Shown one piece after another: positions 6,161 through 63,814 of a stretch of DNA of 64,000 bases. This DNA comes from Heptranchias perlo (taxonomy: Eukaryota): assembly GCF_035084215.1 (NCBI RefSeq), contig NC_090330.1, forward strand, positions 42,904,001 through 42,968,000. The letters run 5' to 3'. The position numbers and the translations under genes are program-made. Below the pieces are notes generated by a model. That model did no database searches, was not told the DNA's origin, and worked only from the letters and a program-made list of their open reading frames with translations. Positions within the stretch are counted from its first letter, which is position 1, and each line of letters starts with the position of its first letter.

Positions 6161-6247
6161 TTCCCATGAATCTTCATTTTTTTAATTAGCTTGTTGGGGT
6201 GGCACTCCTGGCTAAGTATGCTGGATGAGTTTTATAACCCGTTGAAA

Positions 6248-7400
6248 TCAAGGCAGCATTTGACCGACTATGGCACCAAAGAGCCCTAGTAAAATTGAAG
6301 TCAATGGGAATCGGGGGAAAACTCTCCAGTGGCTGAAGTCATATATAGCACAAAGGAAGATGGTAGTGGTTGTTGGAGGCCAATCATCTCAGCCATAGGA
6401 CATTGCTGCAGGAGTTCCTCAGGGCAGTGTCCTAGGCCCAACCATCTTCAGTTGCTTCATCAATGACCTTCCCTCCATCATAAGTTCAGAAATGGGGACG
6501 TTTGCTGATGATTGCACAGTGTTCAGTTTCATTCTCAATCCCTCAGATAATGAAGCAGTCCGTGCCCACATGCAGCAAGACCTGGACAACATCCAGGCGT
6601 GGGCTGAAAACTGGCAAGTAACATTCGCGCCAGACAAGTGCCAGGCAATGACCATCTCCAACAAGAGAGAGTCTAACCACCTCCCCTTGACATTCAACGA
6701 CATTGCCATCGCCGAATCCCCCACCATCAACATCCTGGGGGTCACCATTGACCAGAAACTTAACTGGACCAGCCATATAAATACTGTGGCTACGAGAGCA
6801 GGTCAGAGGCTGGGTATTCTGCGGCGAGTGACTCACCTCCTGACTCCCCAAAGCCTTTCCACCATCAATAAGGCACAAGTCAGGAGTGTGATGGAATACT
6901 CTCCACTTGCCTGGATGAGTGCAGCTCCAACAACACTCAAGAAGCTCGACACCATCCAAGACAAAGCAGCCTGCTTGATTGGCACCCCATCCACCACCCT
7001 AAACATTCACTCCCTTCACCACCGGCGCACTGTGGCTGCAGTGTGTACCATCTACAAGATGCACTGCAGCAACTCGCCAAGGCTTCTTCGACAGCACCTC
7101 CCAAACCCGCGACCTCTACCACCCAGAAGGACAAGGGCAGCAGGCACATGGGAACAACACCACCTGCACGTTCCCCTCCAAGTCACAAACCATCCCGACT
7201 TGGAAATATATCACCGTTCCCTCATCGTTGCTGGGTCGAAATCCTGGAACTCCCTATCTAACAGCACTGTGGGAGAACCTTCACCACACGGACTGCAGTG
7301 GGTCAAGAAGGCGGCTCACCACCACCTTCTCAAGGGCAATTAGGGATGGGCAATAAATGCTGGCCTTGCCAGTGACGTCCATGTCCCATGAACGAATTTT
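6248..7400 (+). mobile_element. 5'-truncated APE-RT LINE (CR1/L2 group), same family as the tRNA-headed element at 49112-52373
   Basis: RT motifs [20 protein letters not shown] and FADD; ORF 6492-7343 ends SWNSL...AAHHHLLKGN*. 3' tail AATAAATGCTGGCCTTGCCAG..CCCATGAACGAAT. Confidence 0.92.
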
Positions 7401-13202: not shown

Positions 13203-14596
13203 AGATTGGACAGTAAATTGGTTGGGAGATTACAACCTCTAAGCCCAGCCATAGTTCTGTGGCAAATCCAATAGTAGCATCTAATGTTTTGTTTTTTCCC
13301 TGAGCTTGGGAAGTTCTAGGTGACTCAGTCATATTCATGACAGTTAAGTTTCTCTGGGCAGGCAAACAATGTGCATATTGAGATCAAGGAATTACTGGGG
13401 CAGGCTCCTGATGGGTAGCATTTGGAACAGTTAGAGGAATCAGGGCAACATATTCATTTTTATTGTACTTGTCTGCCCTACAACTGTTGTGGGCAGGCTG
13501 CCTCGCCTGTCTAGGTTGGTGTATCTGTTGCCATGGGCAAGGCAGAGATGGTAATTATTTGTCCTGAGCAGAAAGTATAGAGGTTTATGTTGCACCAAAG
13601 TGTGATGAATGCTGTAATCCCCACATGTTCTGAGCAGAAGCACTTTTATTCCCCTAAATTTGTTTTGAGCATTGATGTGGTGATTTTTTTTTGTAGAGGT
13701 GGAGAGGGCGGTTGCTTCTATATGGATGAAATGATACATAGATGAAACTGGCCATGCCAGCTATCCCTCTACACTTGAGGTGTAGCTACTTTTGTGGTGC
13801 TCCATTGATTCCTTGTTGAATTCCTTTCACTTTATTTTTGCCTGGCATTTCTTTCCGCTCTTCCCCATCAGCCATGGCAAAGGTTGTCCTATGTGGCTAC
13901 TTATCTCTAGGTGGCTGATTCCTTTTAAATTTCATTTAAAGCTCAATTTTCTGGTCCCGCCTTTAGGTTAGCTCCATTGAAACATAGGAAAAGAAAATTG
14001 GGCGGGGTGTAAAATGGGCGGCCGCCACCTGGCGAAGTTGAAAATTCCATCCAGAGAAGTTTGCAGCACAGAAGGATGCTATTTAACCCATAGTGTCCGT
14101 GCCCGCTCTTTTTAGAGTCTTTGCACCCACAGCTACCCAGGTAGCCGTTTGTTTAGACCACACCATATTTACTTGAGCATATATAAGGAGATGTCTCTTC
14201 ACCATTATGCTTCACCAAAGATGCAGAAAATTCCCATCTCCTGCAGGACTAGGATGTTTCCGACCATAGCAGACAATGTCAAGACTGCCTCGTGTTCTGT
14301 ACCACGGGCTCCTTACAGACTGCCTTTGGTGACATCAGTTAGATCAGCCAGTCTACAGTGCACCACTGCTTACATCAAATCAAGGATACATTGTTTTCCA
14401 GCATGGGAGATTTCGTCACTTTTCCTAATGATAATGAGCATTAACAAGAGAGAGCTCTTCACTTATTTTTAGTGTGGCTTCCCAGAATTGTACAGTATTA
14501 AAGCTGGAGCCCATGCAGCAATATGAGCTCTTTGCAGCTGTACAATTCCATTTACAAACAAAAAGGGATTCCATTACATCAATTTGTAGATTATTT

Positions 14597-14798
14597 GTGA
14601 CCAATTGGGTTTTTACAACAATCCGACCGACGGCTTCATGGTTAATTTTACTGATACCAACTTTTTATTTTCCTTTTTTTTAATTGAATTCAAATTCTCA
14701 AACTGCCATGGTGGGATTTGAACTCGCATTCTCTAGTATATTAGTACAAACCTCTGGATGACTAATTCAGTAACATAACCACGACCTCACTGTACATC
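14597..14798 (-). mobile_element. tRNA-derived head fragment homologous to the 5' end of the LINE at 52170-52373
   Basis: Aligns by eye to 52170-52370 (GGGTTTTTACAACAATCCG...GGATTTGAACTC...AGTAACATAACCAC). B box GTTCAAATCC at 14714-14723 (minus). Confidence 0.75.
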
Positions 14799-27535: not shown

Positions 27536-28079
27536 CTGTATTATTTAAATCCTGCCCGATCTCCGTATCCCTTGATTCCCTCAGAGCCCAAAAATCTATC
27601 GATCTCAGTCTTCAATATACTCAACGACTGAGCATCCACAGCCCTCTAGGGTAGAGAATTCCAAAGATTCACAACCCTCTAAGTGAATAAATTTCTCCTC
27701 ATCTCAGCCCTAAATGTCCAACCCCTTATCCTGACACTATGTCCCTTAGTTCCAGACTCTCCAACCAGGAGAAACATCCTCTCAGCATCTACCCTGTCAA
27801 GCCCTCTTAGAATCTTATATGTTTTAATGAGATCACCTCTCATTTTTCTAAATTCCAGAGAGTATGGGCCCATTCTATTCAACCTTTCCTCATAGGACAA
27901 CCCTCTCATCCCAGGAATCAATCTAGTGAACCTTCGTTCCACTGCCTCTAAGGTAAGTATATCCTTCCTTAGGTAAGAAGAACAAAACTGTACACAGTAC
28001 TCCAGATGTGGTCTCACCAAAGCCCTGTACAATTGCAGCAAGACTTCCTTATTCTTATACTCTAACCCCCTTGTAATAA

Positions 28080-28797
28080 TTGTAAACAATTTTACAACAC
28101 CAAGTTATAGTCCAACAATTTTATTTTTAATCCCACAAGCTTTCGGGGGCTTTCCCCTGCCTCAGGCGGTGTGGAAATGACATTTTCGAATCCTTCGCAT
28201 TTTAAGATCACATAACAATGCCTGGTGATTACTGCCCGTTGCCAAGGCAATCACAGTGAGCAGACAGAAAGGTGTCACCTAAAAAGGCCACCGAATATAC
28301 AAACCCCCCAAAAAAAGAGAGAGAGAGATAAGGAAGACAGTCATGACCCGTTATGTTAAAAACAGATAACATTTGTTCGCTGGTGGGGTTACGTGTAGTG
28401 TGACATGAACCCAAGATCCCGGTTCATGTCACACTACACGTAACCCCACCAGCGAACAAATGTTATCTGTTTTTAATATAACGGGTCATTGACTGTCTTC
28501 CTTATCTCTCTCTCTCTCTTTTTTTTGGGGGTTTGTATATTCGGTGGCCTTTTTAGGTGACACCTTTCTGTCTGCTCACTGTGATTGCCTTGGCAACGGG
28601 CAGTAATCACCAGGCATTGTTATGTGATCTTAAAATGCGAAGGATTCGAAAATGTCATTTCCACACCGCCTGAGGAAGGGGAAAGCCCCCGAAAGCTTGT
28701 GGGATTAAAAATAAAATTGTTGGACTATAACTTGGTGTTGTAAAATTGTTTACAATTGTCAACCCCAGTCCATCACCGGCATCTCCACATCATGGCT
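28080..28797. mobile_element. Penelope-like element remnant: two inverted pLTRs forming a ~335-bp-arm hairpin, 13-bp TSD
   Basis: Arms 28078-28411 and 28421-28757 are near-perfect reverse complements. TSD CCCCTTGTAATAA at 28067-28079 and 28798-28810. Homologous to the 3' end of the GIY-YIG element at 46961-48903. Confidence 0.9.
28666..28702 (+). ncRNA. Minimal type I hammerhead ribozyme in pLTR (inverted copy at 28133-28169 has a core mutation, CTGAGGC)
   Basis: CCGC-CTGAGGA-A-GGGG(aaagc)CCCC-GAAA-GC-TT-GTGG: CUGANGA and GAAA cores with stems I and II. Confidence 0.75.
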
Positions 28798-32479: not shown

Positions 32480-34386
32480 TGTCGCCAGCGTGAAGCATGG
32501 GCAATTTCTGCCAAGAAGTTTCAGTGCCATGACTGAAAGCACGGAGGAGTCTGTTTCTGACATATGTAGTGTCATCTTGCATGGCATCAGCACTCTGCAG
32601 TTTACCTTGGAGGGTGTGCTGAGCTCTAGGGTTTTTGCAGATTTGCCCTCATAAAAGAAGTCAATGTTACCAAGGTTTGCGGTTTGGATTGAAGCTCAAA
32701 CAGCTGCTATGCAGGCTGTGGGCTCCACCTTGGAGGAACAGGTGTCCACCTTGGATGGATTTGTGGACCGAATAGATAGGGGCTTTCAAGGAGTCACTCA
32801 TCTTCTGCTCACCCACAGATCAGTGGAAGTGATGAGCCCCAGCCCCATGGGAGTAACAGTGGCACAATGGGAGCAGTACGTGTTGCTCACTCTCAGGATG
32901 TCAGCATGTCCGATCCTTCGCCATCCTTCAACCATGTGCTGGGAAATCAGCTGGGCCAAACTGCCCTGGCAGCAGCCGAGGCCTTCGTAGGCTCGAGCAC
33001 TCAGAAGTCGTGGCCACGAGCATCTCAAGGGTCCCCACATGAGCAAGAGCAGCTTTACTGAGGCAACTGGAGGAGCACCTCATAGGAGTAGTAGAGTTAG
33101 TAAACCTGCTTTTAAGAAAGGCACTATGAGTTGATACTTGGGTGAGAAAGTAATTCAAGGCAAATATTGTGTTTCCTGTTAAATTCATCTACTTTATCAC
33201 ATTTGGCATATTGGTCTGCAATGTGGTTTCATAGCAGTTGCTGAGTCTGCAATTTCAATATGTCATTGATATAGAAGTTGGCTGAATGGTTTCAGTGTTC
33301 TTTAATGCAGGATAAAGAGAATGGTGAAGAACATAACACGGACTGTTATTGCAGAGGAACTTTGTGTAAGTTTTCAGAGCAGGGGAATGAGCAGTTTCAC
33401 CGTAATCATCACGCAATTAACTCATCTCATGCTGCAAGGCTATGAGGTGGCCCTTCTTCTTCTGCTGTTTCCTCAGCTTCACCCTGGTCTTCCTTGTCTG
33501 ATGAGGACTGATGCTGTTGCTCCGCCTCCTACAAAAGCCGGCCTCTCTATATGCCAAGCTTGTGCAGGATGCAGCACCCCATTATGATGCGTGAGACTCT
33601 TTGTGTGGCATATTTGTAGGGAGATCCAAGACTCCTCGATACATCTTTACCTTTCTTTGAGGAGCCCTATAGTGTGCTCAATTATGATCTTGGTGGTCTC
33701 ATGGCTTAGATTCTACCTGTGTTGTTCAGGTGTGGTGGGGCTGCAAAGGGGTGTCATAAGCCATGTACGTAGGGGGTATTTCTTTCCCCCAGCGGCCACC
33801 CTGTCACGTTCCTGGAAAGGTTGAATATTGAGAGGATAGTTAAGTGTCACAGGATAAAAGCGATGTGACAGCTGTTAGGAATCTTTCAAAAACTTGCAGT
33901 ATCCTGTTTCTGTGAGAGGAGACGAGCTGCACACGAATAGAGTGGTAGCCCTTCCCATTCATGAAGGCTGCTGGCTGGTGTTCTGGTGCCCTAATGGCAA
34001 CATGTGTGCAATTTGTGACACCTTGGACGCAAGTGAAGCCAGCCACTGCAGCAACTTCCTGAGCTTTCTCCTGTTGACTGTTGACGTCAATGGGGAAAAT
34101 AATGCACTGGCTAGCCCTAGCGAACAGGGCATTGATAACCTGCGTAATGCAGCTGTGCACTGCCGACTGGGATTTTTTTTTATTCGTTCATGGATGTGGG
34201 TGTCGCTGGCAAGGCCAGCCCATTGCCCATCCCTAATATGCAGCAGTTGTCCCCTGTATCAACCAATGGCAAAAAGCCACTGACAAAGCAATGCCTTCTG
34301 GTCCAGCAGGCAGCAGATCCTGTTGCAGGAGTGCAGAGGTCTGCAACAGCCTCTCTGGAGAAACACAGCCTCCTGATGCACAGAGC
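32480..34386 (-). mobile_element. Decayed Harbinger: Harbi1-like nuclease on - (~33400-34386), convergent second-gene last exon on + (~32480-33130)
   Basis: ORF 33840-34160(-): SQSAVHSCITQV..AGFTCVQGVTNCTHVAIRAP...NGKGYHSIRVQLV (decayed IDCTH and NRKG motifs). The + part resembles the Myb gene exon 3 at 57555-58400. Confidence 0.8.
34172..34236 (-). mobile_element. Very short 3'-tail insertion of the tRNA-headed LINE/SINE family into the Harbi gene
   Basis: T9-ATTCGTTCATGGATGTGGG..GGCAAGGCCAG..TTGCCCATCCCTAAT matches the tail at 49112-49180 and splits the CCI|SQSAV motif. Confidence 0.8.
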
Positions 34387-36620: not shown

Positions 36621-37818
36621 GCTGTAATTTTTTGAATTTGTTGCAGCATCTGTCAGTGGAGGACTCCCCCTTTAAATAGAGCTCCTCCAGCTGACAGGCC
36701 TTACTGCGCATGCGCAGTCCGCCCGACGCACAGATCAGCAGTGGGGAACCCGGAAGACCAGGTAAGTGGATCCAATTAAGCTGCGAACGCACGGGGGGCA
36801 GACTAATTTCACTGGGCGCGTTACCCACGCGCCCAATAGCACCCCTGCCGCGAACCTGCAGCCCCGGTAACATCGGGCTCTTTGGGTCCGTCTTCACGGT
36901 AGAGGATACAAATAACATGCCAGAAATAATTGTGAATCAAGAGGTGAAAGGGAGGGAGGAACTTAAAACATTTACAAACACCAGGGAAAGGGTTCTGAAA
37001 AAAATATTAGAACTAAAAGCTGATAAGTCCCCAGGTCCTGACGGACTTCATCCTAGGGTCTTAAAAGAAGTGGCTGCAGAGATAGTAGATGCATTGGTAT
37101 TAATTTTCCAAGATTCCCTAGATTCTGGAAGGGTCCCACCAGATTGGAAAATAACAAATGTAACTCCTCTATTCAAGAAAGGAGTGAGACAGAAAGCAGG
37201 AAACTACAGGCCAGTTAGCTAAACATCTGTCATAGGGAAAATGCTACAATCTATTATTAAGGGGGTTATTGCAGGGCACTTAGAAAATCTCAATGCAATC
37301 AGGCAGAGTCAACACAGCTTTGTGAAAGGGAAATTATGTTTGACTAATTTATTAGAGTTCTTTGAGGAAGTAACAAGCAACGTGGATAAAGGGGATCCTG
37401 TGGATGTGGTATACTTGGATTTCCAGAAGGCTTTTGACAAGGTGCCACATCAAAGGCTACTACACAAAATAAAAGCTCATGGTGTAGGGGATAACATATT
37501 AGCATGGATAAAGGATTGGTTAGGTAACAGGAAACAGAGAGTAGGCATAAATGGGTCATTTTCAGGTTGGCAAGATGTAACGAGTGGAGTGCCACAGGGA
37601 ATGTGCTGGGGCCTCAACTATTTACAATCTATATCAATGACTTGGATGAAGGGACTGAATGTATGGTTGCTAATTTTGCTGATGACACAAAGGTAGGTAG
37701 GAAAGTAAGTTGTGAAGAGGACATAAGGAGTCTGCAAAGGGATATAGATAGGTTAAATGAGCGGATAAAAAATTGGCAGATGGAGTATAATGTGGGAAAA
37801 TGTGAACTTGTCCACTTT

Positions 37819-46633: not shown

Positions 46634-47677
46634 ATAGCTGAGGCCCAAGCACTTATTCTTGTGGCGCCCCACTAGTTACAGCCTGCCAACCTGAAAATGA
46701 CCCGTTTGTCCCTACTGTTCTCTGTCTGTTAACCAATCTTCAATCCATGCTAATATATTATCCCCAATCCCTTGAGTCCTTATCTTGTGTCACAACCTTT
46801 GTGAGTCACCTTATCGAATATCTTTTGAAAATCCAAACATATTACATTCACTGGTGCCCTTTTATCTACCCTGCTAGTTACATCTTCAAAAACTCGAATA
46901 GATTTGTCAAACACAATCTCCCTCTCATAAAACCATGTTGACTCTGCCAAGTCATATTATTGTAAACAATTTTACAACACCAAGTTATAGTCCAGCAATT
47001 TTATTTTAAATTCACAAGCTTTCGGAGGCTTCCTCCTTCGTCAGGTGAACGATGTGAAAATGAAATCCTCGAAATGAAATCGCATTTATAATTCACAGAA
47101 CAATGCTTGGTGAGTACAGACAGTTTTTTCAACTGCCCGTTGCCAAGGCAATCAGTGTGCAGACAGACAGGTGTTACCTGCCAGGTCTCACAGAATATAC
47201 AAATCACCAAAAAAAAAACAACAAACAAAAAAAAAACAGAGATAGAGAGGTAGAAACATAGAAAAGACAGCAACTGACCCGTTATATTAAAAACAGATAA
47301 CATTTGTTCGCTGGTGGGGTAACGTGTAGCGTGACATGAACCCAAGATCCCGGTTGAGGCCGTCCTCGTGGGTGCGGAACTTGGCTATCAATTTCTGCTC
47401 GACGATTTTGCGTTGTCGTGTGTCTCGAAGGCCGCCTTGGAGTACGCTTACCCGAAGGTCGGTGGATGAATGTCCATGACTGCTGAAGTGTTCCCCGACT
47501 GGGAGGGAACCCTCCTGTTTGGCGATTGTTGCGCGGTGTCCGTTCATCCGTTGTCGCAGCGTCTGCATGGTCTCGCCAATGTACCATGCTCTGGGGCATC
47601 CTTTCCTGCAACGTATGAGGTAGACAACGTTAGCCGAGTCACAGGAGTATGAACCATGCACCTGGTGGGTGGTGTCC

Positions 47678-48540
47678 CCTATGGGCAGGCCCTGCGAATA
47701 CACAGGGTCTGCTCAGACGAGGAGGAACGCGATGGACACCTACAGACGCTGAAAGACGCCCTAGTAAGAACGGGATATGACGCTCGACTCATCGATCGAC
47801 AGTTCCGACGGGCCACAGCAAAAAATCGCATAGACCTCCTCAGGAGACTAACACGGGACGCAACCAACAGAGTACCCTTTGTCGTCCAGTACTTCCCCGG
47901 AGCGGAGAAACTACGCCATGTTCTCCGCAGCCTTCAACATGTCATCAATGAGGACAAACACCTCGCTATGGCCATCCCCACACCTCCACTACTCGCCTTT
48001 AAACAGCCACCCAACCTCAAACAGACCATCGTTCGCAGCAAATTACCTAGCTTTCAAGAGAACAGCGTCCACGACACCACACAACCCTGCCACGGTAACC
48101 TCTGCAAGACATGCCAGATCATCGACACAGATACCACCATCACACGAGAGGACACCACCCACCAGGTACATGGTTCATACTCCTGTGACTCAGCTAACGT
48201 TGTCTACCTCATACGTTGCAGGAAAGGATGCCCCAGAGCATGGTACATTGGCGAGACCATGCAGACGCTGCGACAACGGATGAACGGACACCGCGCAACA
48301 ATCGCCAAACAGGAGGGTTCCCTCCCAGTCGGGGAACACTTCAGCAGTCATGGACATTCATCCACCGACCTTCGGGTAAGCGTACTCCAAGGCGGCCTTC
48401 GAGACACACGACAACGCAAAATCGTCGAGCAGAAATTGATAGCCAAGTTCCGCACCCACGAGGATGGCCTCAACCGGGATCTTGGGTTCATGTCACGCTA
48501 CACGTTACCCCACCAGCGAACAAATGTTATCTGTTTTTAA
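47678..48540 (+). CDS. Penelope polyprotein C-terminal fragment: RT C-terminal/linker region plus GIY-YIG endonuclease (5'-truncated, uninterrupted)
   Basis: PYGQALRIHRVCSD, then PCHGNLCKTC, NVVYLIRC...WYIGET..LRQRMNGHR, E..LI..F and GLN. The ATG at 47656 comes from the inverted arm. Confidence 0.88.
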
Positions 48541-48778
48541 TATAACGGGTCAGTTGCTGTCTTTTCTATGTTTCTACCTCTCTATCTCTGTTTTTTTTTT
48601 TGTTTGTTGTTTTTTTTTTGGTGATTTGTATATTCTGTGAGACCTGGCAGGTAACACCTGTCTGTCTGCACACTGATTGCCTTGGCAACGGGCAGTTGAA
48701 AAAACTGTCTGTACTCACCAAGCATTGTTCTGTGAATTATAAATGCGATTTCATTTCGAGGATTTCATTTTCGCATCG

Positions 48779-48817
48779 TTCACCTGACGAAGGAGGAAGC
48801 CTCCGAAAGCTTGTGAA
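48779..48817 (+). ncRNA. Minimal type I hammerhead ribozyme in pLTR (identical inverted copy at 47011-47049, minus)
   Basis: TTCAC-CTGACGA-A-GGAGG(aag)CCTCC-GAAA-GC-TT-GTGAA, with AATAAA just downstream. Confidence 0.85.
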
Positions 48818-49111
48818 TTTAAAATAAAATTGCTGGACTATAACTTGGTGTTGTAAAATTGTTTACAATTGTCAACCCCAGTCCATCACCGGCATCTCCA
48901 CATCAAGTCATATTATGATTTTCTAAGTGCCCATTACCATGTCCTCAATAATGGATTCCAGTATTTTCCTGAATGCTGATGTCAGGCTAACTGGCCTGTA
49001 ATTCCCTCTCCCTCCTTTCTTGAATGGAGGTATTACATTTGCTACCTTCCAATCTACAGAGACAGTTCTAAAATCTAGGGAATTTTGGAATCCACTATCT
49101 CTGCAGCCACC

Positions 49112-52100
49112 TTTTTTTTTATTCGTTCATGGGATGTGGGCGTCGCTGGCAAGGCCGGCATTTATTGCCCATCCCTAATTGCCCTTGAGAAGGTGGTGGT
49201 GAGCCGCCACCTTGAACCGCTGCAGTCCGTGTGGTGACGGTTCTCCCACAGTGCTGTTAGGAAGGGAGTTCCAGGATTTTGACCCAGCGACGATGAAGGA
49301 ACGGCGATAAATTTCCAAGTCGGGATGGTGTGTGGCTTGGAGGGGAACGTGCAGGTGGTGTTGTTCCCATGTGCCTGCTGCTCATGTCCTTCTAGGTGGT
49401 AGAGGTTGCGGGTTTGGGAGGTGCTGTCGAAGAAGCACCTCCCAAACTGCGAGTTGCTGCAGTGCATCCTGTGGATGGTACACACTGCAGCCACAGTGCG
49501 CCGGTTGTGAAGGGAATGAATGTTTAGGGTGGTGGATGGGGTGCCAATCAAGCGGGCTGCTTTATCTCGGATGGTGTCGAGCTTTTTGAGTGTTGTTGGA
49601 GCTGCACTCATCCAAGCAAGTGGAGTGTATTCCATTACACTCCTGACTTGTGCCTTGTAGATGGTGGAAAGGCTTTGGGGAGTCAGGAGGTGAGTCACTC
49701 GCTGCAGAATACCCAGCCTCTGACCTGCTCTCATAGCCACAGTATTTATATGGCTGCTCCAGTTAAGTTTCTGGTCAATGGTGACCCCCAGGATGTTGAT
49801 GGTGGGGGATTCGGCAATGGTAATGCTGTTGAATGTCAAGGGGAGGTGGTTAGACTCTCTCTTGTTGGAGATGGTCATTGCCTGGCAATTATCTGGCGCA
49901 AATGTTACTTGCCACTTACGAGCCCAAGCCTGGATGTTGTCCAGGTTTTGCTGCATGTGGGCTCGGACTGCTTCATTATCTGAGGGGTTGCGAATGGAAC
50001 TGAACACTGTGCAATCATCAGCGAACATCCCCATTTCTGACCTTATGATGGAGGGAAGGTCATTGATGAAGCAGCTGAAGATGGTTAGGCCTAGGATACT
50101 GCCTCGAGGAGCTTCTGCAGCAATGTCCTGGGGCTGAGATGATTGGCCTCCAACAACCACTACCATCTTCCTTTGTGCTAGGTATGACTCCAGCCACTGG
50201 AGAGTTTTCCCCCAATTCCCATTGACTTCAATTTTACTAGGGCTCCTTGGCGCCACATTCGGTCAAATGCTGCCTTGATGTCAAGGGCAGTCACTCTCGC
50301 CTCACCCTGGAATTCAGCTCTTTTGTCCATGTTTGGACCAAGGCTGTAATGAGGTCTGGAGCCGAGTGGTCCTGGCGGAACCCAAACTGAGCATCGGTGA
50401 GCAGGTTATTGGTGAGTAAGTGCCGCTTGATAGCACTGTCGACGACACCTTCCATCACTTTGATGATGATTGAGAGTAGTCTGATGGGGCGGTAATTGGC
50501 CGGATTGGATTTGTCCAGCTTTTTGTGGACAGGACATACCTGGGCAATTTTCCACATTGTCGGGTAGATGCCAGTGTTGTAGCTGTACTGGAACAGCTTG
50601 GCTAGAGGCGCAGCTAGTTCTGGAGCGCAAGTCTTCAGCACTACAGCTGGGATGTTGTCGGGGCCCATAGCCTTTGCTGTATCCAGTGCACTCAGCCGTT
50701 TCTTGATATCACGTGGAGTGAATCGAATTGGCTGAAGACTGGCTTCTGTGATGGTGGGGATATCGGGAGGAGGCCGAGATGGATCATCCACTCGGCACTT
50801 CTGGCTGAAGATGGTTGCAAACGCTTCAGCCTTGTCTTTTTCACTCACGTGCTGGACTCCACCATCATTGAGGATGGGGATGTTTGCAGAGCCTCCTCCT
50901 CCCATTAGTTGTTTAATTGTCCACCACCATTCACGACTGGACTGCAGAGCTTTGATCTGATCCGTTGGTTGTGGAATCGCTTAGCTCTGTCTATACCATG
51001 TTGCTTCCGTTGTTTAGCATGCATGTAGTCCTGAGTTGTAGCTTCACCAGGTTGGCACCTCATTTTTAGATACGCCTGGTGCTGCTCCTGGCATGCTCTT
51101 CTACACTCCTCATTGAACCAGGGTTGATCCCCTGGCTTATTGGTAATGGTAGAGTGAGGAATATGCCGGGCCATGAGGTTACAGATTGTGCTGGAATACA
51201 ATTCTGTTGCTGCTGATGGCCCACAATGTCTCTTGGATGTCCAGTTTTGAGCTGCTGGATCTGTTCTGATTCTCCCCCATTTAGCACGGTGGCTGTGCCA
51301 CACAACACATTGGATGGTGTCCTCAGTGCGAAGACGGGACTTCATCTCCACGAGGACTGTGCAGTGGTCACTCCTACCAATACTGTCATGGACAGATGCA
51401 TTTGCGACAGGTAGATTGGTGAGGACGAGGTCAAGTAAGTTTTTCCCTCGTGTTGGTTCGGCTCACCACCTGCCGCAGGCCCAGTCTCGTAGCTATGTCC
51501 TTTAGGACTCGGCCAGTTCGGTCAGTAGTGGTGCTACCGAGCCACTCTTGGTGATGGACATTGAAGTCCCCCACCCAGAATACGTTTTATGCCCTTGCTA
51601 CCCTCAGTGCTTCCTCCAAGTGGTGTTCAACATGGAGGACGACGGATTCATCAGCTGAGGGAGGACGGTAATCAGCAGGAGGTTTCCTTACCCATGTTTG
51701 ACCTGATGCCATGAGATTTCATGGGGTCCAGAATCAATGTTGAGGACTCCCAGGGCCACTCCCTCCTGACTGTATATCACTGTACCGCCACCTCTGGTGG
51801 GTCTGTCCTGCTGGTGGGACAGGACATACCCAGGGATGGTGATGGAAGAGTCTGGGACGTTGGCTATGTCAGGCTGTTGCTTGACTAGTCTGTGGGACAG
51901 CTCTCCCAATTTTTGCACAAGTCCCCAGATGTTAGTAAGGAGGACCTTGCAGGGTCGACTGGGCTTGGTTTGCCGTTGTCGTGTCCGGTGCCTAGTGGTC
52001 CGTCCGGTTTTATTCTTATTATGACTTTTCGTAGCGAGATTTTACAACTGAGTGGCTTGCTAGGCCATTTCAGAGGGCAATGAAGAATTAACCATATTGC

Positions 52101-52373
52101 TGTGGGTCTGGAGTCACATATAGGCCAGACCGGGTAAGGACAGCAGGTTTCCTTCCCTAAAGGGCATTAGTGAACCAGATGGGTTTTTACAACAATCCGG
52201 TAGTTTCATGGCCATCATTACTGATACTGGTATTTTAATTCCAGATTTTTATTTAATTAATGAATTTAAATTCACCAGCTGCCGTGGTAGGATTTGAACT
52301 CATGACTCTGGATTTTAGTCTGGGCCTCTAGGATTACTAGTTTAGTAACATAACCACTATGCTACCATACCCC
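49112..52373 (-). mobile_element. Near full-length single-ORF APE-RT LINE (CR1/L2 group) with a tRNA-derived 5' head and no ORF1
   Basis: Order on minus: tRNA-like head, ~250-nt leader, APE (LLTNIWGL, DRPTRGGG), RT (KAMGPDNIP, NYRPI, QFGFR, FADD), 3' tail and poly(A). A few frameshifts. Confidence 0.9.
52290..52364 (-). promoter_or_regulatory. Type 2 Pol III internal promoter (A box and B box) at the LINE 5' end
   Basis: A box TAGCATAGTGG (52354-52364) fits TRGCNNARYGG. B box GTTCAAATCC (52290-52299) fits GTTCRANNC. Confidence 0.75.
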
Positions 52374-54162
52374 ATAGGGTGTAGGTCATCAGGTCCAGGG
52401 GATTTGTCAGCTTTTAGTCCCATTAATTTCTCCAGTACTTTTTCTTTACTAAGATTAATTACTTTAAATTCCTCACTCTCATTAGACCCTTGGTTCCCCA
52501 CTATTTCTGGTATGTGTTATATGTCTTCTACTGTGAAGACAGATACAAAATATTTGTTTAACGCCTCTGGCATTTCCTTATTCCCCATTGTAATTTCTCC
52601 TGTCTCAGCCTCTAAGGGACCTATGTTTACTTTCGCTACTCCCTTCCTTTTTACATACTTGTAGAATCTCTTACAATCTGTTTTTATATTTCTTGCTAGT
52701 TTACTCTCATATTCAATTTTCTCCCTCTTTATCATTTTTTTGGTCATCCTTTGCAGGTTTTTAAAACTCTCCCAGTTCTCAGGCTTACTACTCTTCTTGG
52801 AAATATTCTAAGCCTCTTCTTTTAATCTAATACTATCCTTAACTTCTTTAATGAGCCACGGATGGATCACTTTTCCCATGGAGTTTTTATTCCTCAATGA
52901 AATGTATATTCATATGTTCGCCATTGCTTATCTACCATCATATCTTTTAATCTAATTTCTCAATCAACCTAACTAGTTAGCCATGGTTGGATCACTTTTC
53001 CTGTGGGGTTTTTCTTCCTCAATGGTATGTATATTCGTTGGAAATTATGAATAATTTCTTTAAATGTTCGCCATTACTTATCTAGCGTCATCTCTTTTAA
53101 TCTAATTTCCCAATCTACCTTAGCCAACTCACCTCTCGTACCTACATACTTGGCCTTGTTTAAATTTAAGACCCTAGTTTCAGACTTAACTACATCACTC
53201 TCAAACTCAATATGAAATTCTATCATATTAAGATCACTCTACCCCAGAGGATCCCTTACTATGAGATTACTAATTAACCCTGTCTCATTACACAAGACTA
53301 GATCTAAAATAGCTTGCTCCCTGGTTGGTTCCACGACATATTGTTCCAGGAAACTGTCTCGAATACATTCGTTCTCCAATTTACTTTTCCCAATTTGATT
53401 TGCCCAGTCTATATGAAGATTAAAGTCCCCCACGATTATTGCATTACCTTTTTTACAAGCATCTTTTATTTCTTGATTAATACTCTGTCCAACAACTGTT
53501 AGGAGGCCTATAAACAATCCCACAAGTGTTTTCTGTCCCTTATTATTTCTTATCTCCACCCATACTGATTCTACTTCCTGATCTTCCAAGCCAACATCCT
53601 TTCTCACTACTGTCTTTATGTCATCCTTTTTTATCAGGGCTACCACCACCCCCCGCCCCACCTTTTCCATTTTGTCCACGTCTCAGTAAAGGCTATTAGA
53701 TCAAACCCATTTATCTCTATTTGTGGCATTAATTCATCTATGCTTTGTGCATTCAGATAAAGTGCCTTTAATTTTTACTATATTTTCCTGATTCGACCCT
53801 ATTCACTGATGAACTATTACTGTTAAATTCTCTGTCCCTTCCTGACACATTCTGCTTATCTTTACCCTAATTGCTACACTGCTCTATGGCCTTGACTTTT
53901 CTCTTTAGATTTATAAATTTACCCTTAACTGAACCCTCCCTCCCTCATCTTTCCCTGACACACAATACATTTAGGGCAGCTCATTTATCTAATCGAGCAT
54001 ACTGGTACATTTTGCTAAGATGTCTGCTTCCACTGTTTTTTATATTTTTGAAACTGTTAAATTCAAGATTGCTGTAATATAAGTTTAGTGATTGACAATC
54101 AATTAGATTATTTTGATAAAAATCAATAAAGTACTCGTGAAGCACGTCAGTTGTCAGCTGGT

Positions 54163-54176
54163 CCACTAGATGGCAG
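54163..54176 (+). promoter_or_regulatory. Candidate CTCF binding site
   Basis: CCACTAGATGGCAG closely matches the CTCF core CCASYAGRKGGCRS, in apparently unique sequence. Confidence 0.5.
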
Positions 54177-54549
54177 GCCATGCAGAAAAGTGGGGGGGAA
54201 GGAAATGAGATGGTCTAGGGTATATCTGACTTAGCTAATTTTAGCAAAAAAGTAGACATAAGTAAAAAGTCGTAGAATAAAGTACAATGTGTGCTTCAAA
54301 CTGTCCTAAACATCCAAAATTGGTTAATGAACATTCGTGAAAAGTTAATTTTAAAAAAGGCATATTTTAAGGTCATTAATTAAGCTAATCAAAAAGACAA
54401 ATTTCACCCCCCAAGTTGTTAAATATATTAATGAGGAAATTGTTCACCGTTCCCCAGCTGCAAATTCAAATCAAAAGATGACTTTTAACTCCAGGTGAGA
54501 CCTGCTATTAGTCAGCTTAACAAATGGGAAAAATTCAAAGGCATAGAAA

Positions 54550-55210
54550 TTAGATATTAGAACTGGGCGCAGGAAACAATCCCTGGCCCTGTCTCACACG
54601 ACATTGGGCATCGGGCTTCATTTGCATGAGACCACCGAGCTGCAGACACCTGGTGGGTGCCCCCAGGCAGCTCGCGATGAAGAGGATTTCAATTTTTGGA
54701 TCGCTGTGCCACCAGCTGCATTCCTCAAGTAGGTCCTGGGAGAGGGGGGCAAGCAATTGGGAGGGAGGGGGTGATTGGGAAGGAGGGAGTTGATCAGGGG
54801 GGTGGGGGTGATCGGGAGGGGGCTGAGCAGGGGCTGGCAACAATGTTCGGCACTGCAGTGGAACCAGGAGGGAGACTCCTGCACCTCCCGGCTTAACATT
54901 CAGGTAAGTATTTTTTTTAACAAACTTACTTTGTTGGTGGCAGCCTCTAGTGGTCCCTTTAAGAACCATTGATTAGACCACATATAGACCATGTTTTCCT
55001 GAACGCAGCCAGCCTGGTTCCAGCTGTGTTCTGACAGCCTAATTTTGCAAAGGAGTGTCAAACGGCCGTTAGGCCGCTTATTTGCATACGTAAAGGGCTT
55101 AACGCCTGTTTACCAATATGGTGGTTGGTGCATTTCTATCACGTAATAAGAACACGTGTCCCGCCTGCCATATTGAATGGTAGGCACCTGTTTCACACCT
55201 GAAAAACGAG
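54550..55210. mobile_element. Probable Harbinger-type non-autonomous element
   Basis: GC-rich island with ATTTGCAT motifs near both ends, a G-rich interior and a CAGGTAAGT...ACTTAC module shared with other MITEs here. TIRs weak. Confidence 0.4.
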
Positions 55211-60288: not shown

Positions 60289-62642
60289 TGTGACAAAAGT
60301 GCAGCAGATAACTGGTTTTGATGCAAGAAACTTTGATCTTTATTCAAGAGAGAAAATACAACACTACAATCTTAACACTCTAATAAAATGGGGAACACTT
60401 CGGTACACACGAGGGAAATTACAGTAGAAAGATACCTCACCCCTCCCAATCCCACTTTACTAGCTAAGTTGGGCTCTAAAGGACCAAAGATAATGCTCAC
60501 CAAACGAATCCTTGACAGTTGAGCTGGTTCGCGATTTTGGGGTTCGCAGTATGTGTTGGTTGGTGTCTGCCATACCTCAGACACGGTAGAGGACTTCAAC
60601 TGCGTAGCTGGTCAGTCTTCACGAGTCCGCTGATACGGTAGGGTGTGTCTTGGATCTATCGGGTGAGTACCCACTTTTCTTTGTAAAGTGATAGGATTTA
60701 GAGTCTTTTGAGTAGAAAACTCACCCAGGGGTAAGTCAGGAATAGATTGTAGAGTGGAAACTTTGCAGATCTTCGGTTTTCTCCCGAGTTGGTTTTCTTT
60801 GGTCGTGGTGGCTCAATATTACCTGGTTGGTTGGTGGTAATATTCGGTTGGTTGTTTCGTAAGGCCCTTGTTGCCGCGAGGTGTCTGATGGTCACTGGGG
60901 CTGTTGTTCTGGTTTCTTCTTGTGTGTCGGCCTGCTTCTAGAGCTGCTGACCTCTGTTGAACTTCTTTCTGTTGCCCCCTTGCCTTGTTGAACTGTTGTC
61001 TCCCAAGCTGTCGAACTCCTGGCTGAACTGAACTTCTTGAGAAAATGGGCCTTCAATTATATTAATTGAAGCCTCCTTATCTGCACGCCAAATCTGACCT
61101 GGTTTATTGTAAGATTTTGGCTGGCTCATTAAGAGTAACTTGTTTATGAAAATGTGTGAAGTGGTTTCGTGATGGTTTCATGAGTTGTTGAGCTCTTGCT
61201 TGATTGTAGTCATTGTGCTCAGGTTTCGAGTTTCCTGACTGGGCCTGAGATTTCTATGGAGTGGGCTGATTGGATTTGTTTTATGCGTGTTTTGGATGGG
61301 TCCTGTAATTTGGGTGGGGACTGCTCTTCCGTGCGTCTATTGTCTGAATGTAAATGTCTGGTCGGGGCTGAGTGAGGTCATACAGTTCCCCAGACAGTTT
61401 GATTAACTCCAACACTCAAACTGTCTATTACAGAGTTGATCCCAACTTCTGTTGCAGCCTTTGTTTTCCTTTACAAGCCGAAACATGCCTTTTTAAAATA
61501 CCAAATCTTGGTTTTTGACCTTGAATCACCCTCTGATAGGCCCAATATTTCATCACCCTGAAATTTTTTTTTTTATTATTCGTTCATGGGATGTGGGCGT
61601 CGCTGGCGAGGCCGGCATTTATTGCCCATCCCTAATTGCCCTTCAGAAGGTGCTGGTGAGCCGCCTTCTTGAACTGCTGCAGTCCGTGTGGTGACGGTTC
61701 TCCCACAGTGCTGTTAGGAAGGGAGTTCCAGGATTTTGACCCAGCGACGATGAAGGAACGGCGATATATTTCCAAGTCGGGATGGTGTGTGACTTGGAGG
61801 GGAACGTGCAGGTGGTGTTGTTCCCATGTGCTTGCTGCTCTTGTCCTTCTAGGTGGTAGAGGTCGCGGGTTTGGGAGGTGCTGTCGAAGAAGCACCTCCC
61901 AAACTGCGAGTTGCTGCAGTGCATCCTGTGGATGGTACACACTGCAGCCACAGTGCGCCGGTGGTGAAGGGAGTGAATGTTTAGGGTGCTGGATGGGGTG
62001 CCAATCAAGCGGGCTGCTTTATCTTGGATGGTGCCGAGCTTCTTGAGTGTTGTTGGAGCTGCACTCATCCAAGCAAGTGGAGAGTATTCCATCACATTCC
62101 TGACTTGTGCCTTGTAGATGGTGGAAAGGCTTTGGGGGGTCAGGAGGTGAGTCACTCGCCACAGAATTCCCAGCCTCTGACCTGCTCTTGTAGCCACAGT
62201 ATTTATATGGCTGGTCCAGTTAAGTTTCTGGTCAATGGTAACCCCCAGGATGTTGATGGTGGGGGATTCGGTGATGGTAATGCCGTTGAATGTCAAGGGG
62301 AGGTGGTTAGACTCTCTCTTGTTGGAGATGGTCATTGCCTGGCACTTATCTGGAGCGAATGTTACTTGCCACTTATGAGCCCAAGCCTGGATGTTGTCCA
62401 GGTCTTGCTGCATGCGGGCTCGGACTGCTTCATTATTTGAGGGGTTGTGAATGGAACTGAACACTGTGCAATCATCAGCGAACATCCCCATTTCTGACCT
62501 TATGATGGAGGGAAGGTCATTGATGAAGCAGCTGAAGATGGTTGGGCCTAGGACACTGCCTGGTTAGAAAAGAGTCCAAAGTCCTTTTCTTTAGGGTTTT
62601 TCTCCGAGTTTTGGGGGATCTGTGAATTTTGAGAATCTTACA
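60289..62642 (-). mobile_element. Possible solo LTR (TG...CA) interrupted by a LINE
   Basis: Begins TGTGAC and ends TTACA; AATAAA on minus ~50 nt from the 3' end; non-coding with a distinct GT-skewed composition. No TSD found. Confidence 0.4.
61564..62560 (-). mobile_element. 5'-truncated copy of the tRNA-headed LINE family
   Basis: ORF 61643-62491 (FADDCTVF) is nearly identical to 49162-50030; same tail and poly(A). Confidence 0.92.
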
Positions 62643-63720: not shown

Positions 63721-63736
63721 GCTCTTCTCTGCGATA

Positions 63737-63814
63737 TTGATGGTGGGGGATTCGGCGATGGTAATGCCGTTGAATGTCAAGGGGAGGTGGTTAGACTCTC
63801 TCTTGTTGGAGATG
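63737..63814 (-). mobile_element. 78-bp internal RT fragment of the tRNA-headed LINE family
   Basis: Nearly identical to 62253-62330. Confidence 0.85.

What the first reader, a model, noticed from the sequence alone, without database searches (positions are those of the whole stretch)
49112..52373. Candidate Pol III-driven protein-coding LINE: tRNA promoter fused to a single APE-RT ORF, no ORF1
Seen: on the minus strand the element starts GGGGTATGG-TAGCATAGTGG (A box)...GTTCAAATCC (B box). It runs through a ~250-nt leader directly into the APE domain (SRPCKVLLTNIWGL), with no poly(A), tail or TSD between head and ORF and no room for ORF1. Established: CR1/L2-group LINEs normally use a Pol II 5'UTR and often have an ORF1, whereas A/B-box heads define non-coding SINEs. 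Inference: this is an autonomous retrotransposon with a SINE-type promoter, and tRNA SINEs sharing this head and tail could be its internal-deletion derivatives.
Basis: partly seen in the sequence, partly recalled or inferred. Interest (0 to 1): 0.9.

Follow-up and report, generated by a model that had tools for sequence, protein, structure and literature searches.

The report
Shark LINE wearing a tRNA head
This is a broken copy of an abundant shark jumping-gene family whose members begin with a tRNA-type head and run straight into one protein-coding frame, so the family is likely transcribed by RNA polymerase III like a non-coding SINE while still making its own copying enzyme, which would break the usual LINE/SINE divide.

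Summary
In genome G000 (shark, inferred from relatives) the head 20-mer has 6,656 exact hits and the APE-start 19-mer 9,722. Of 30 head-anchored loci, 24 run into the APE and 4 are short head+leader+tail forms. Of 70 APE-anchored loci, 46 reach the head; the rest are 5'-truncated and share no other 5' sequence, so no ORF1 was seen. The head resembles tRNA-Thr(AGT), with A and B boxes at a sharp 5' end. A natural copy holds a 968-codon APE-RT frame, and shared variants are under purifying selection (dN/dS 0.13-0.19). The window copy is dead. Two additions: the family has no TTTT terminator over 3.3 kb (suggestive only, P about 0.06-0.12), and the youngest lineage has an in-frame stop after its only nearby in-frame AUG, so the APE cannot be made by ordinary AUG initiation. 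Two corrections: there are no TSDs, and a 34-residue basic extension precedes the APE. Pol III transcription is untested (about 0.55). A tRNA-like stretch is mentioned for one fly RTE; Repbase and Dfam could not be searched.

The parts
52279..52372 (-). tRNA-derived head (tRNA-Thr(AGT)-like, anticodon arm duplicated); 5' end of the element
   Evidence: ARAGORN -ps85 calls a tRNA in 19 of 23 heads, Thr(AGT) in 17; 0 of 230 shuffled heads and 1 of 47 body windows; sharp 5' boundary in 66 copies
52354..52364 (-). A box TAGCATAGTGG, starting 8 nt after the 5' end
   Evidence: sequence; head 20-mer covering it has 6,656 exact hits
52290..52300 (-). B box AGTTCAAATCC
   Evidence: sequence; alignment of 40 heads
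52042..52278 (-). Leader, kept in the short SINE forms; head plus leader hold 9 AUGs in copy L031; candidate internal translation-entry element (inferred)
   Evidence: folding z = -1.88, 7 of 200 shuffles as good
52042..52068 (-). In-frame AUG (52068-52066) closed by TAG (52062-52060) and TAA (52044-52042)
   Evidence: AUG in 64 of 65 copies, TAA at codon 9 in most; TAA form 5,240 and TAC form 1,035 exact hits
49175..52041 (-). Single APE-RT reading frame, here broken by stops, frameshifts and deletions; about 34 basic residues, then APE (about 51940-51340) and RT (about 50510-49760)
   Evidence: intact 968-codon natural copy in L031 = P0001; Pfam PF03372, PF14529, PF00078 above cut-off; window pieces
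49112..49174 (-). 3' tail with two AATAAA and a short A-tail, shared with the short forms
   Evidence: tail 20-mer 44,516 exact hits
52374..54600 (-). Left part of the unrelated CR1-type host LINE that the element interrupts (far end approximate)
   Evidence: collinear with an uninterrupted paralog at window 36881-37289
48880..49111 (-). Right part of the same host LINE, resuming without duplication

Best explanation
The element is a decayed copy of a high-copy, single-frame APE-RT LINE family whose 5' end is a tRNA-derived head, and its source elements are likely transcribed from that head by RNA polymerase III and likely translated by an AUG-independent internal start. Shown: head, leader, ORF and tail move as one unit; the ORF was under purifying selection in the source elements; there is no ORF1 and no TTTT run. 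Inferred: TFIIIC binds the A/B boxes and Pol III starts at the first G and reads 3.3 kb because no T4 terminator lies in the way; ribosomes enter the uncapped RNA at the leader and start between the TAA and the APE; the protein nicks target DNA and reverse-transcribes from the tail, leaving no TSD. Internal deletions repeatedly give SINEs with the same head, leader and tail (inferred direction).
For: Unit mobility: 24 of 30 head-anchored loci enter the APE; 46 of 70 APE-anchored loci reach the head, 45 without the ambiguous L263; the host LINE resumes on both sides here and L062 is a whole unit inserted bluntly into another copy. Coding: shared variants dN/dS 0.17 against 0.95 for private ones, Fisher P 1e-8, 80 copies; the three shared indels downstream of position 380 are multiples of three. 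Pol III signs: fixed 5' end 8 nt before the A box; TTTT is the only one of 256 tetramers absent from L031, and is absent from 17 of 23 full copies, private in the other 6. Non-AUG start: the youngest 33 copies all carry the TAA, their shared ORF variants still have dN/dS 0.13-0.19, the first Met after the stop is at about residue 245, behind the APE, and non-CpG shared variants at 352-439 are mostly silent in the ORF frame but not in the overlapping frame. Uncapped, IRES-like translation is proposed for R2 and L1Tc (PMC6765202 passages).
Against: No transcript, cap or polymerase data. Lack of TTTT is weak: P(0) 0.06-0.12 under first-order Markov and codon-shuffle nulls, about 0.5-0.7 under a second-order null, and the element is T-poor (20%). 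Known Pol III retroelements are 100-1,263 nt and Pol III processivity is thought to limit them (PMC10886601 passages). The tail has AATAAA motifs that fit Pol II processing. The leader fold is only modest and Rfam finds no IRES or ribozyme. The head scores below Rfam's tRNA cut-off (21.6 against 29 bits in 1 of 7 loci). In organisms C and E the head bin has about 2-3% of the ORF's depth, so the head-ORF link is not shown outside G000.
Confidence: 0.55

Rival explanations
1. The family is an autonomous LINE that captured a SINE as its 5' UTR but is transcribed by RNA polymerase II from an internal promoter in the head or leader; the A/B boxes are passengers or only enhance.
For: Autonomous non-LTR elements are generally described as Pol II transcribed (PMC10886601; PMC5786205 part 4). 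AATAAA motifs precede the A-tail. An older SINE family with the same head, leader and tail exists and could be the donor: none of 30 old-head loci enters this APE. The TTTT deficit is not significant alone. One extra G precedes the tRNA +1 and could be a copied cap (inference).
Against: Nine upstream AUGs and no usable in-frame AUG make cap scanning a poor fit. The 5' end sits at tRNA-promoter geometry and is shared with the short forms. No shared variant among 80 copies creates TTTT in more than 3 copies at any of 41 one-step sites.
Confidence: 0.3
2. The abundant stop-bearing subfamilies are non-autonomous long SINEs moved in trans by a rarer AUG-open relative; the Pol III RNA is template only, not message.
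For: Most copies have a stop between AUG and ORF; an open AUG-to-APE frame occurs in 3 of 65 copies and the TAC form has 1,035 exact hits.
Against: The youngest clade is all TAA (33 of 33), yet its shared ORF changes are mostly silent (20 silent, 8 replacing, P 8e-6) and none of them is a stop; TAC copies sit on longer, older branches.
Confidence: 0.08
3. Source elements have no working promoter; they are co-transcribed with host genes and the tRNA-like head is a processing signal (RNase P-type cut) that sets the 5' end.
For: The 5' end is sharp and within one base of a tRNA +1; R2 uses host co-transcription plus 5' cleavage.
Against: The acceptor stem pairs poorly and the anticodon arm is duplicated, so default tRNA finders miss it; the boxes are intact; one extra G precedes the tRNA +1.
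Confidence: 0.07

Closest known systems
CR1-group single-ORF APE-RT LINEs (possibly CR1-Zenon; that label is recalled, not tested)
   Same: APE plus RT in one frame, 5' truncation with far more tails than heads, no TSD; groups with unnamed 33-40% identical proteins. CR1-Zenon-like LINEs are reported in whale shark (bioRxiv 443036 passage).
   Different: tRNA-derived head at the 5' end, no AUG start in the youngest lineage, no TTTT. The closest metagenome relative L145 (37%) has about 1 kb of T4-rich 5' sequence, an AUG, and no A/B-box match.
SINE2 (tRNA-head SINEs), including the shark families SacSINE1 and HE1
   Same: tRNA head with A/B boxes, body, LINE-type tail; the 420-450 nt short forms are ordinary SINE2s.
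   Different: The long form is 3.3 kb and encodes its own selected APE-RT; Kojima 2018 states that SINEs cannot encode a protein.
RTE-1_DAn and relatives
   Same: An autonomous LINE with a tRNA-like sequence (one sentence in PMC5786205).
   Different: RTE clade; position, boxes and function of the tRNA-like stretch are not given in the text read.
Bipartite LINE-derived SINEs (Bov-tA, AfroSINE, CoeSINE4; RIME, NARTc)
   Same: Short elements made of the 5' and 3' parts of a LINE.
   Different: There the head is added after internal deletion and only RTE, Ingi, Vingi and R2 are listed as sources; here the full LINE already has the head, so one deletion yields a SINE.
R2 and L1Tc
   Same: Single ORF, uncapped RNA and IRES-like start proposed (PMC6765202).
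   Different: Their 5' end is made by an HDV-like ribozyme; none was found here by Rfam.
TRIMp3 (Cassandra, Helenus, Ajax)
   Same: Retroelements other than SINEs with Pol III-type promoters.
   Different: Short, non-coding LTR elements.

Membership tests
APE-type non-LTR retrotransposon (LINE) | APE endonuclease and RT domains with catalytic motifs in a long frame | tested here: met
   P0001: PF03372 38-238, PF14529 132-241, PF00078 523-771; TES, GDFN, SDH, FADD motifs present
APE-type non-LTR retrotransposon (LINE) | Dispersed copies, 5'-truncated, common 3' end, no LTRs | tested here: met
   tail 44,516, APE 9,722, head 6,656 exact hits
APE-type non-LTR retrotransposon (LINE) | Autonomy: ORF selected in source elements | tested here: met
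   dN/dS of shared variants 0.13-0.19 against 0.79-0.95 private; activity itself not assayed
APE-type non-LTR retrotransposon (LINE) | Transcription by RNA polymerase II from a 5' UTR | not testable with these tools
   no stranded raw RNA run was offered
CR1 clade proper (two ORFs) | ORF1 ahead of ORF2 | tested here: not met
   only 331 nt lie ahead of the frame; flanks are random beyond the head; 24 truncated copies share no alternative 5' sequence at the junction
CR1-Zenon or another named CR1-group clade | RT groups with named reference members | tested here: inconclusive
   quick tree of 71 rows, all relatives unnamed; host CR1-type RT pieces in the window are only 28-38% identical
SINE2 | tRNA-derived head with A and B boxes at the 5' end | tested here: met
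   below the Rfam cut-off
SINE2 | Short and non-coding | tested here: not met
   3.3 kb with a 968-codon frame; met only by the short forms
SINE2 | No internal Pol III terminator | tested here: met
   no shared TTTT in 23 full copies, last 12 nt excluded; chance probability 0.06-0.12 or higher
SINE2 | Transcription by RNA polymerase III | not testable with these tools
   needs ChIP, inhibitor or 5'-end chemistry
Deu-SINE (SacSINE1) or V-SINE (HE1) | Body matches the Deu or V domain | tested here: inconclusive
   no consensus readable; leader motifs not found in the supplements searched, one file not searched; others unavailable
Ribozyme-headed LINEs (R2, RTE, L1Tc) | HDV-like ribozyme at the 5' end | tested here: not met
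   no ribozyme family at E<=10 in 51800-52600; diverged ribozymes could be missed

The most novel reading that the evidence does not exclude
A self-mobilising retrotransposon transcribed by RNA polymerase III: a 3.3-kb uncapped tRNA-promoter transcript that is both message and template, starts translation without AUG through its SINE-body leader, and spawns tRNA SINEs by single deletions, so that a SINE body is here an IRES-like LINE leader.
Probability: 0.45. Interest if true: 0.92.

Novelty: new variant of a known kind. Interest (0 to 1): 0.78.

Why it matters
The field separates coding, Pol II LINEs from non-coding, Pol III SINEs. A head-bearing coding family with thousands of 5'-complete copies and young intact members makes three questions testable: whether Pol III can make a natural multi-kilobase mRNA in a vertebrate, how such an RNA is translated without cap or AUG, and whether SINE bodies can be former LINE leaders. 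Even if Pol II is the enzyme, whole-SINE capture as a LINE 5' UTR, one-step SINE birth in a CR1-group element and an AUG-less APE-RT were not found in the papers searched.

Tried and rejected
Chance SINE beside a truncated LINE: rejected. TSDs: mean shared word 3.1 nt in 30 copies against 2.6 in 870 swapped controls, so none. Minus-one frameshift from the overlapping 70-codon frame that starts at the AUG at position 276: disfavoured, since non-CpG shared variants at 352-439 are mostly silent in the ORF frame and replacing in the other, and no canonical slippery site was seen by eye in the young clade. Editing of the stops: no TGG at either codon in 65 copies. tRNA head as a clade-wide trait: no A/B-box match ahead of the best hit in any of 80 metagenome loci, most of them distant or lacking a 5' end; ARAGORN at -ps80 there gave only noise. 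Viral contigs: no relative. An older head-bearing LINE subfamily: 0 of 30 old-head loci enter the APE, one (L308) runs a little into the N-terminal extension; a guessed motif found nothing. Run X24 laid no reads; X23 laid 165 mostly partial reads, none on the APE. The protein atlas only confirmed RT plus endonuclease. No earlier finding matched. The CTAG hotspot could not be tested in other repeat families, too few copies. The careful RT tree did not finish; only the quick tree is used.

Full report
What is in the window. On the minus strand 52372-49112 reads: a tRNA-like head with A box (52364-52354) and B box (52300-52290), a leader, a reading frame opening at 52041 that leads through about 34 basic residues into an APE domain and then an RT, a short 3' tail and an A-tail. 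The window copy is broken into four frames and lacks part of the APE, so it is dead. It interrupts an unrelated CR1-type LINE whose two halves line up with an uninterrupted paralog at 36881-37289 with no duplication, so head and ORF arrived together. Three 5'-truncated copies and one head fragment lie elsewhere in the window.

It is a family. G000 has 3.25 Gb; I infer a shark because protein fragments 65-90% identical carry the labels Heptranchias, Heterodontus, Cetorhinus and Pristiophorus. Searching with head plus junction gave 40 scored matches, 36 starting within 8 nt of the head; 22 of 39 fetched loci are uninterrupted 3.2-3.3 kb copies. Exact counts are 6,656 for a head 20-mer, 9,722 for an APE-start 19-mer and 44,516 for a tail 20-mer. 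Those matches were chosen by likeness, so I also took loci in genome order, all from the start of contig C1. Of the first 30 head hits, 24 run into the APE, 4 join the leader to the tail and 2 end early. Of the first 70 APE hits, 21 of 30 and 25 of 40 reach the head (one, L263, is ambiguous); the other 24 are truncated and their flanks share no common sequence at the junction. Among 66 head-complete copies the letter before GGGTAC is random. No ORF1 and no longer 5' UTR were seen. There are no TSDs, which is usual for CR1-group elements (own knowledge).

The head. Default ARAGORN and Rfam miss it in the window; Rfam gives 21.6 bits against a cut-off of 29 in one of seven loci. At a relaxed threshold ARAGORN of 23 heads, 17 as Thr(AGT), against 0 of 230 shuffled heads and 1 of 47 body windows. 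The anticodon arm is duplicated in most copies and single in 3 of 40. It is a tRNA-derived, non-functional head with intact boxes.

The ORF is real. Locus L031 holds a natural 968-codon stop-free frame, P0001, with APE and RT above Pfam cut-offs; L062 and L044 hold 967 and 940 codons. Across 80 copies, with CpG sites left out, variants private to one copy have dN/dS 0.95 and variants shared by five or more 0.17 (P 1e-8); the shared indels downstream of position 380 are 15, 3 and 9 nt, while 81 of 348 private indels keep the frame; one 1-nt insertion in an A-run at position 340 recurs in 6 copies. Source elements therefore depended on their own protein (inference from selection).

Translation start. 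An AUG in frame with the ORF is present in 64 of 65 copies, but most have TAA eight codons later and many also TAG at codon 3; 3 of 65 are open from AUG to APE. Genome-wide the TAA form has 5,240 hits and the TAC form 1,035. On a tree of 70 copies the youngest 33, the window copy included, all carry TAA (many inner branches are weakly supported), and their shared ORF variants are 20 silent to 8 replacing after also removing CTA/TAG hotspot sites (dN/dS 0.13, P 8e-6). The first Met after the stop lies behind the APE, and head plus leader of L031 hold nine AUGs (read). Non-CpG shared variants at 352-439 are mostly silent in the ORF frame and replacing in the overlapping frame, so the basic extension is read in the ORF frame. 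The APE must be made by a non-AUG start, reinitiation or readthrough; which one is not shown. The leader folds only modestly (z -1.88).

Which polymerase. For Pol III: boxes at a fixed 5' end shared with short SINE forms; TTTT is the only tetramer missing from L031 and is absent from 17 of 23 full copies, the other six having one private run each, last 12 nt excluded; a leader unfit for cap scanning. Against: the TTTT deficit has P 0.06 (codon shuffle), 0.10 (third-position resampling), 0.07-0.13 (first-order Markov) and 0.5-0.7 (second-order); host CR1-type stretches have 2-10 runs in 1.4-1.6 kb but are richer in T and decayed; AATAAA motifs precede the tail; known Pol III retroelements are at most about 1.3 kb. 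No stranded raw RNA run was offered. I put Pol III at 0.55, Pol II with a captured head at 0.30, trans-mobilised at 0.08 and host co-transcription at 0.07.

Short forms. An exact leader-to-tail pattern gives 28 hits with many different junctions. An older head variant has 999 hits; none of 30 such loci enters the APE and most join leader to tail. Their 5' part runs some 10-25 nt into what is the ORF start of the long form before joining the ORF's last codons (by eye), which fits internal deletion of a head-bearing LINE; capture of an older SINE by a LINE is not excluded.

Range. Runs of five organisms hold 42-80% of the junction's words. In organisms C and E contigs cover the leader, junction and whole ORF and show the leader-to-tail joint, but the head bin has only 2-3% of the depth at 80% likeness, so head linkage there is open. 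Full-length relatives at 33-40% identity are unnamed; in a quick tree of 71 RT rows P0001 falls among them (the first 70 qualifying relatives were used). The closest metagenome locus, L145, has an AUG, T-runs and no box match, which suggests that the head is a later gain.

What is in print. Nine paper searches showed no description of a Pol III-type coding LINE in listings or in the papers opened. [quoted passage not shown] Repbase, Dfam, subscription papers and the unseen supplements may hold this family or its SINE. The CR1-Zenon label is recalled, not tested.

Verdict. The architecture is established as a large, young, selected family in this genome; the AUG-less start in the youngest lineage is a further oddity with good indirect support; Pol III transcription is the best reading but unproven. 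New variant of a known kind, categorically new if Pol III is confirmed.

Noticed in passing
family-wide, 80 copies: T in C-T-A differs from the column majority at 10% (CTAG 19%), mostly to G or C, as high as CpG decay; the mirror site on the other strand is at 5% (8% in CTAG). Cause unknown: a DNA mutational signature or misreading of a modified U.
   Followed up: partly
L087, L256, L263, L289, L255, L074, L082 (element positions 197-208): Seven independent 5' truncations cluster just ahead of a short hairpin in the leader; possibly an RT stall or an RNA cut.
   Followed up: partly
3' tails, 61 copies: A/T tails are short (median 11 nt) and 8 have a T4 or longer run at the start of the tail, which could be a terminator relic or slippage.
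   Followed up: partly
window 46959-48869: Penelope-like piece with a weak GIY-YIG hit (47653-48540) inside near-perfect inverted repeats; a similar inverted arrangement lies at 28078-28757.
   Followed up: no
window 6239-7397, 61569-62561, 63733-63814, 34173-34237, 14593-14782: Truncated copies and fragments of the same family, the last with the older head variant.
   Followed up: partly
G000 contig C23, 1.8-30 Mb: Large tandem arrays of near-identical tRNA-Cys(GCA) genes spaced about 2.35 kb apart, with tRNA-Thr(TGT) genes among them.
   Followed up: no
proteins P0002, P0017, P0035, P0036: Public shark gene models for AKR1B1-like, MDFIC, CWC25 and GPR139 include pieces of this LINE's ORF; probably annotation artefacts, exonisation not tested.
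   Followed up: no
L145:1-1050: The closest metagenome relative has a 1-kb 5' region with an internal direct repeat; a ribozyme was not looked for.
   Followed up: no
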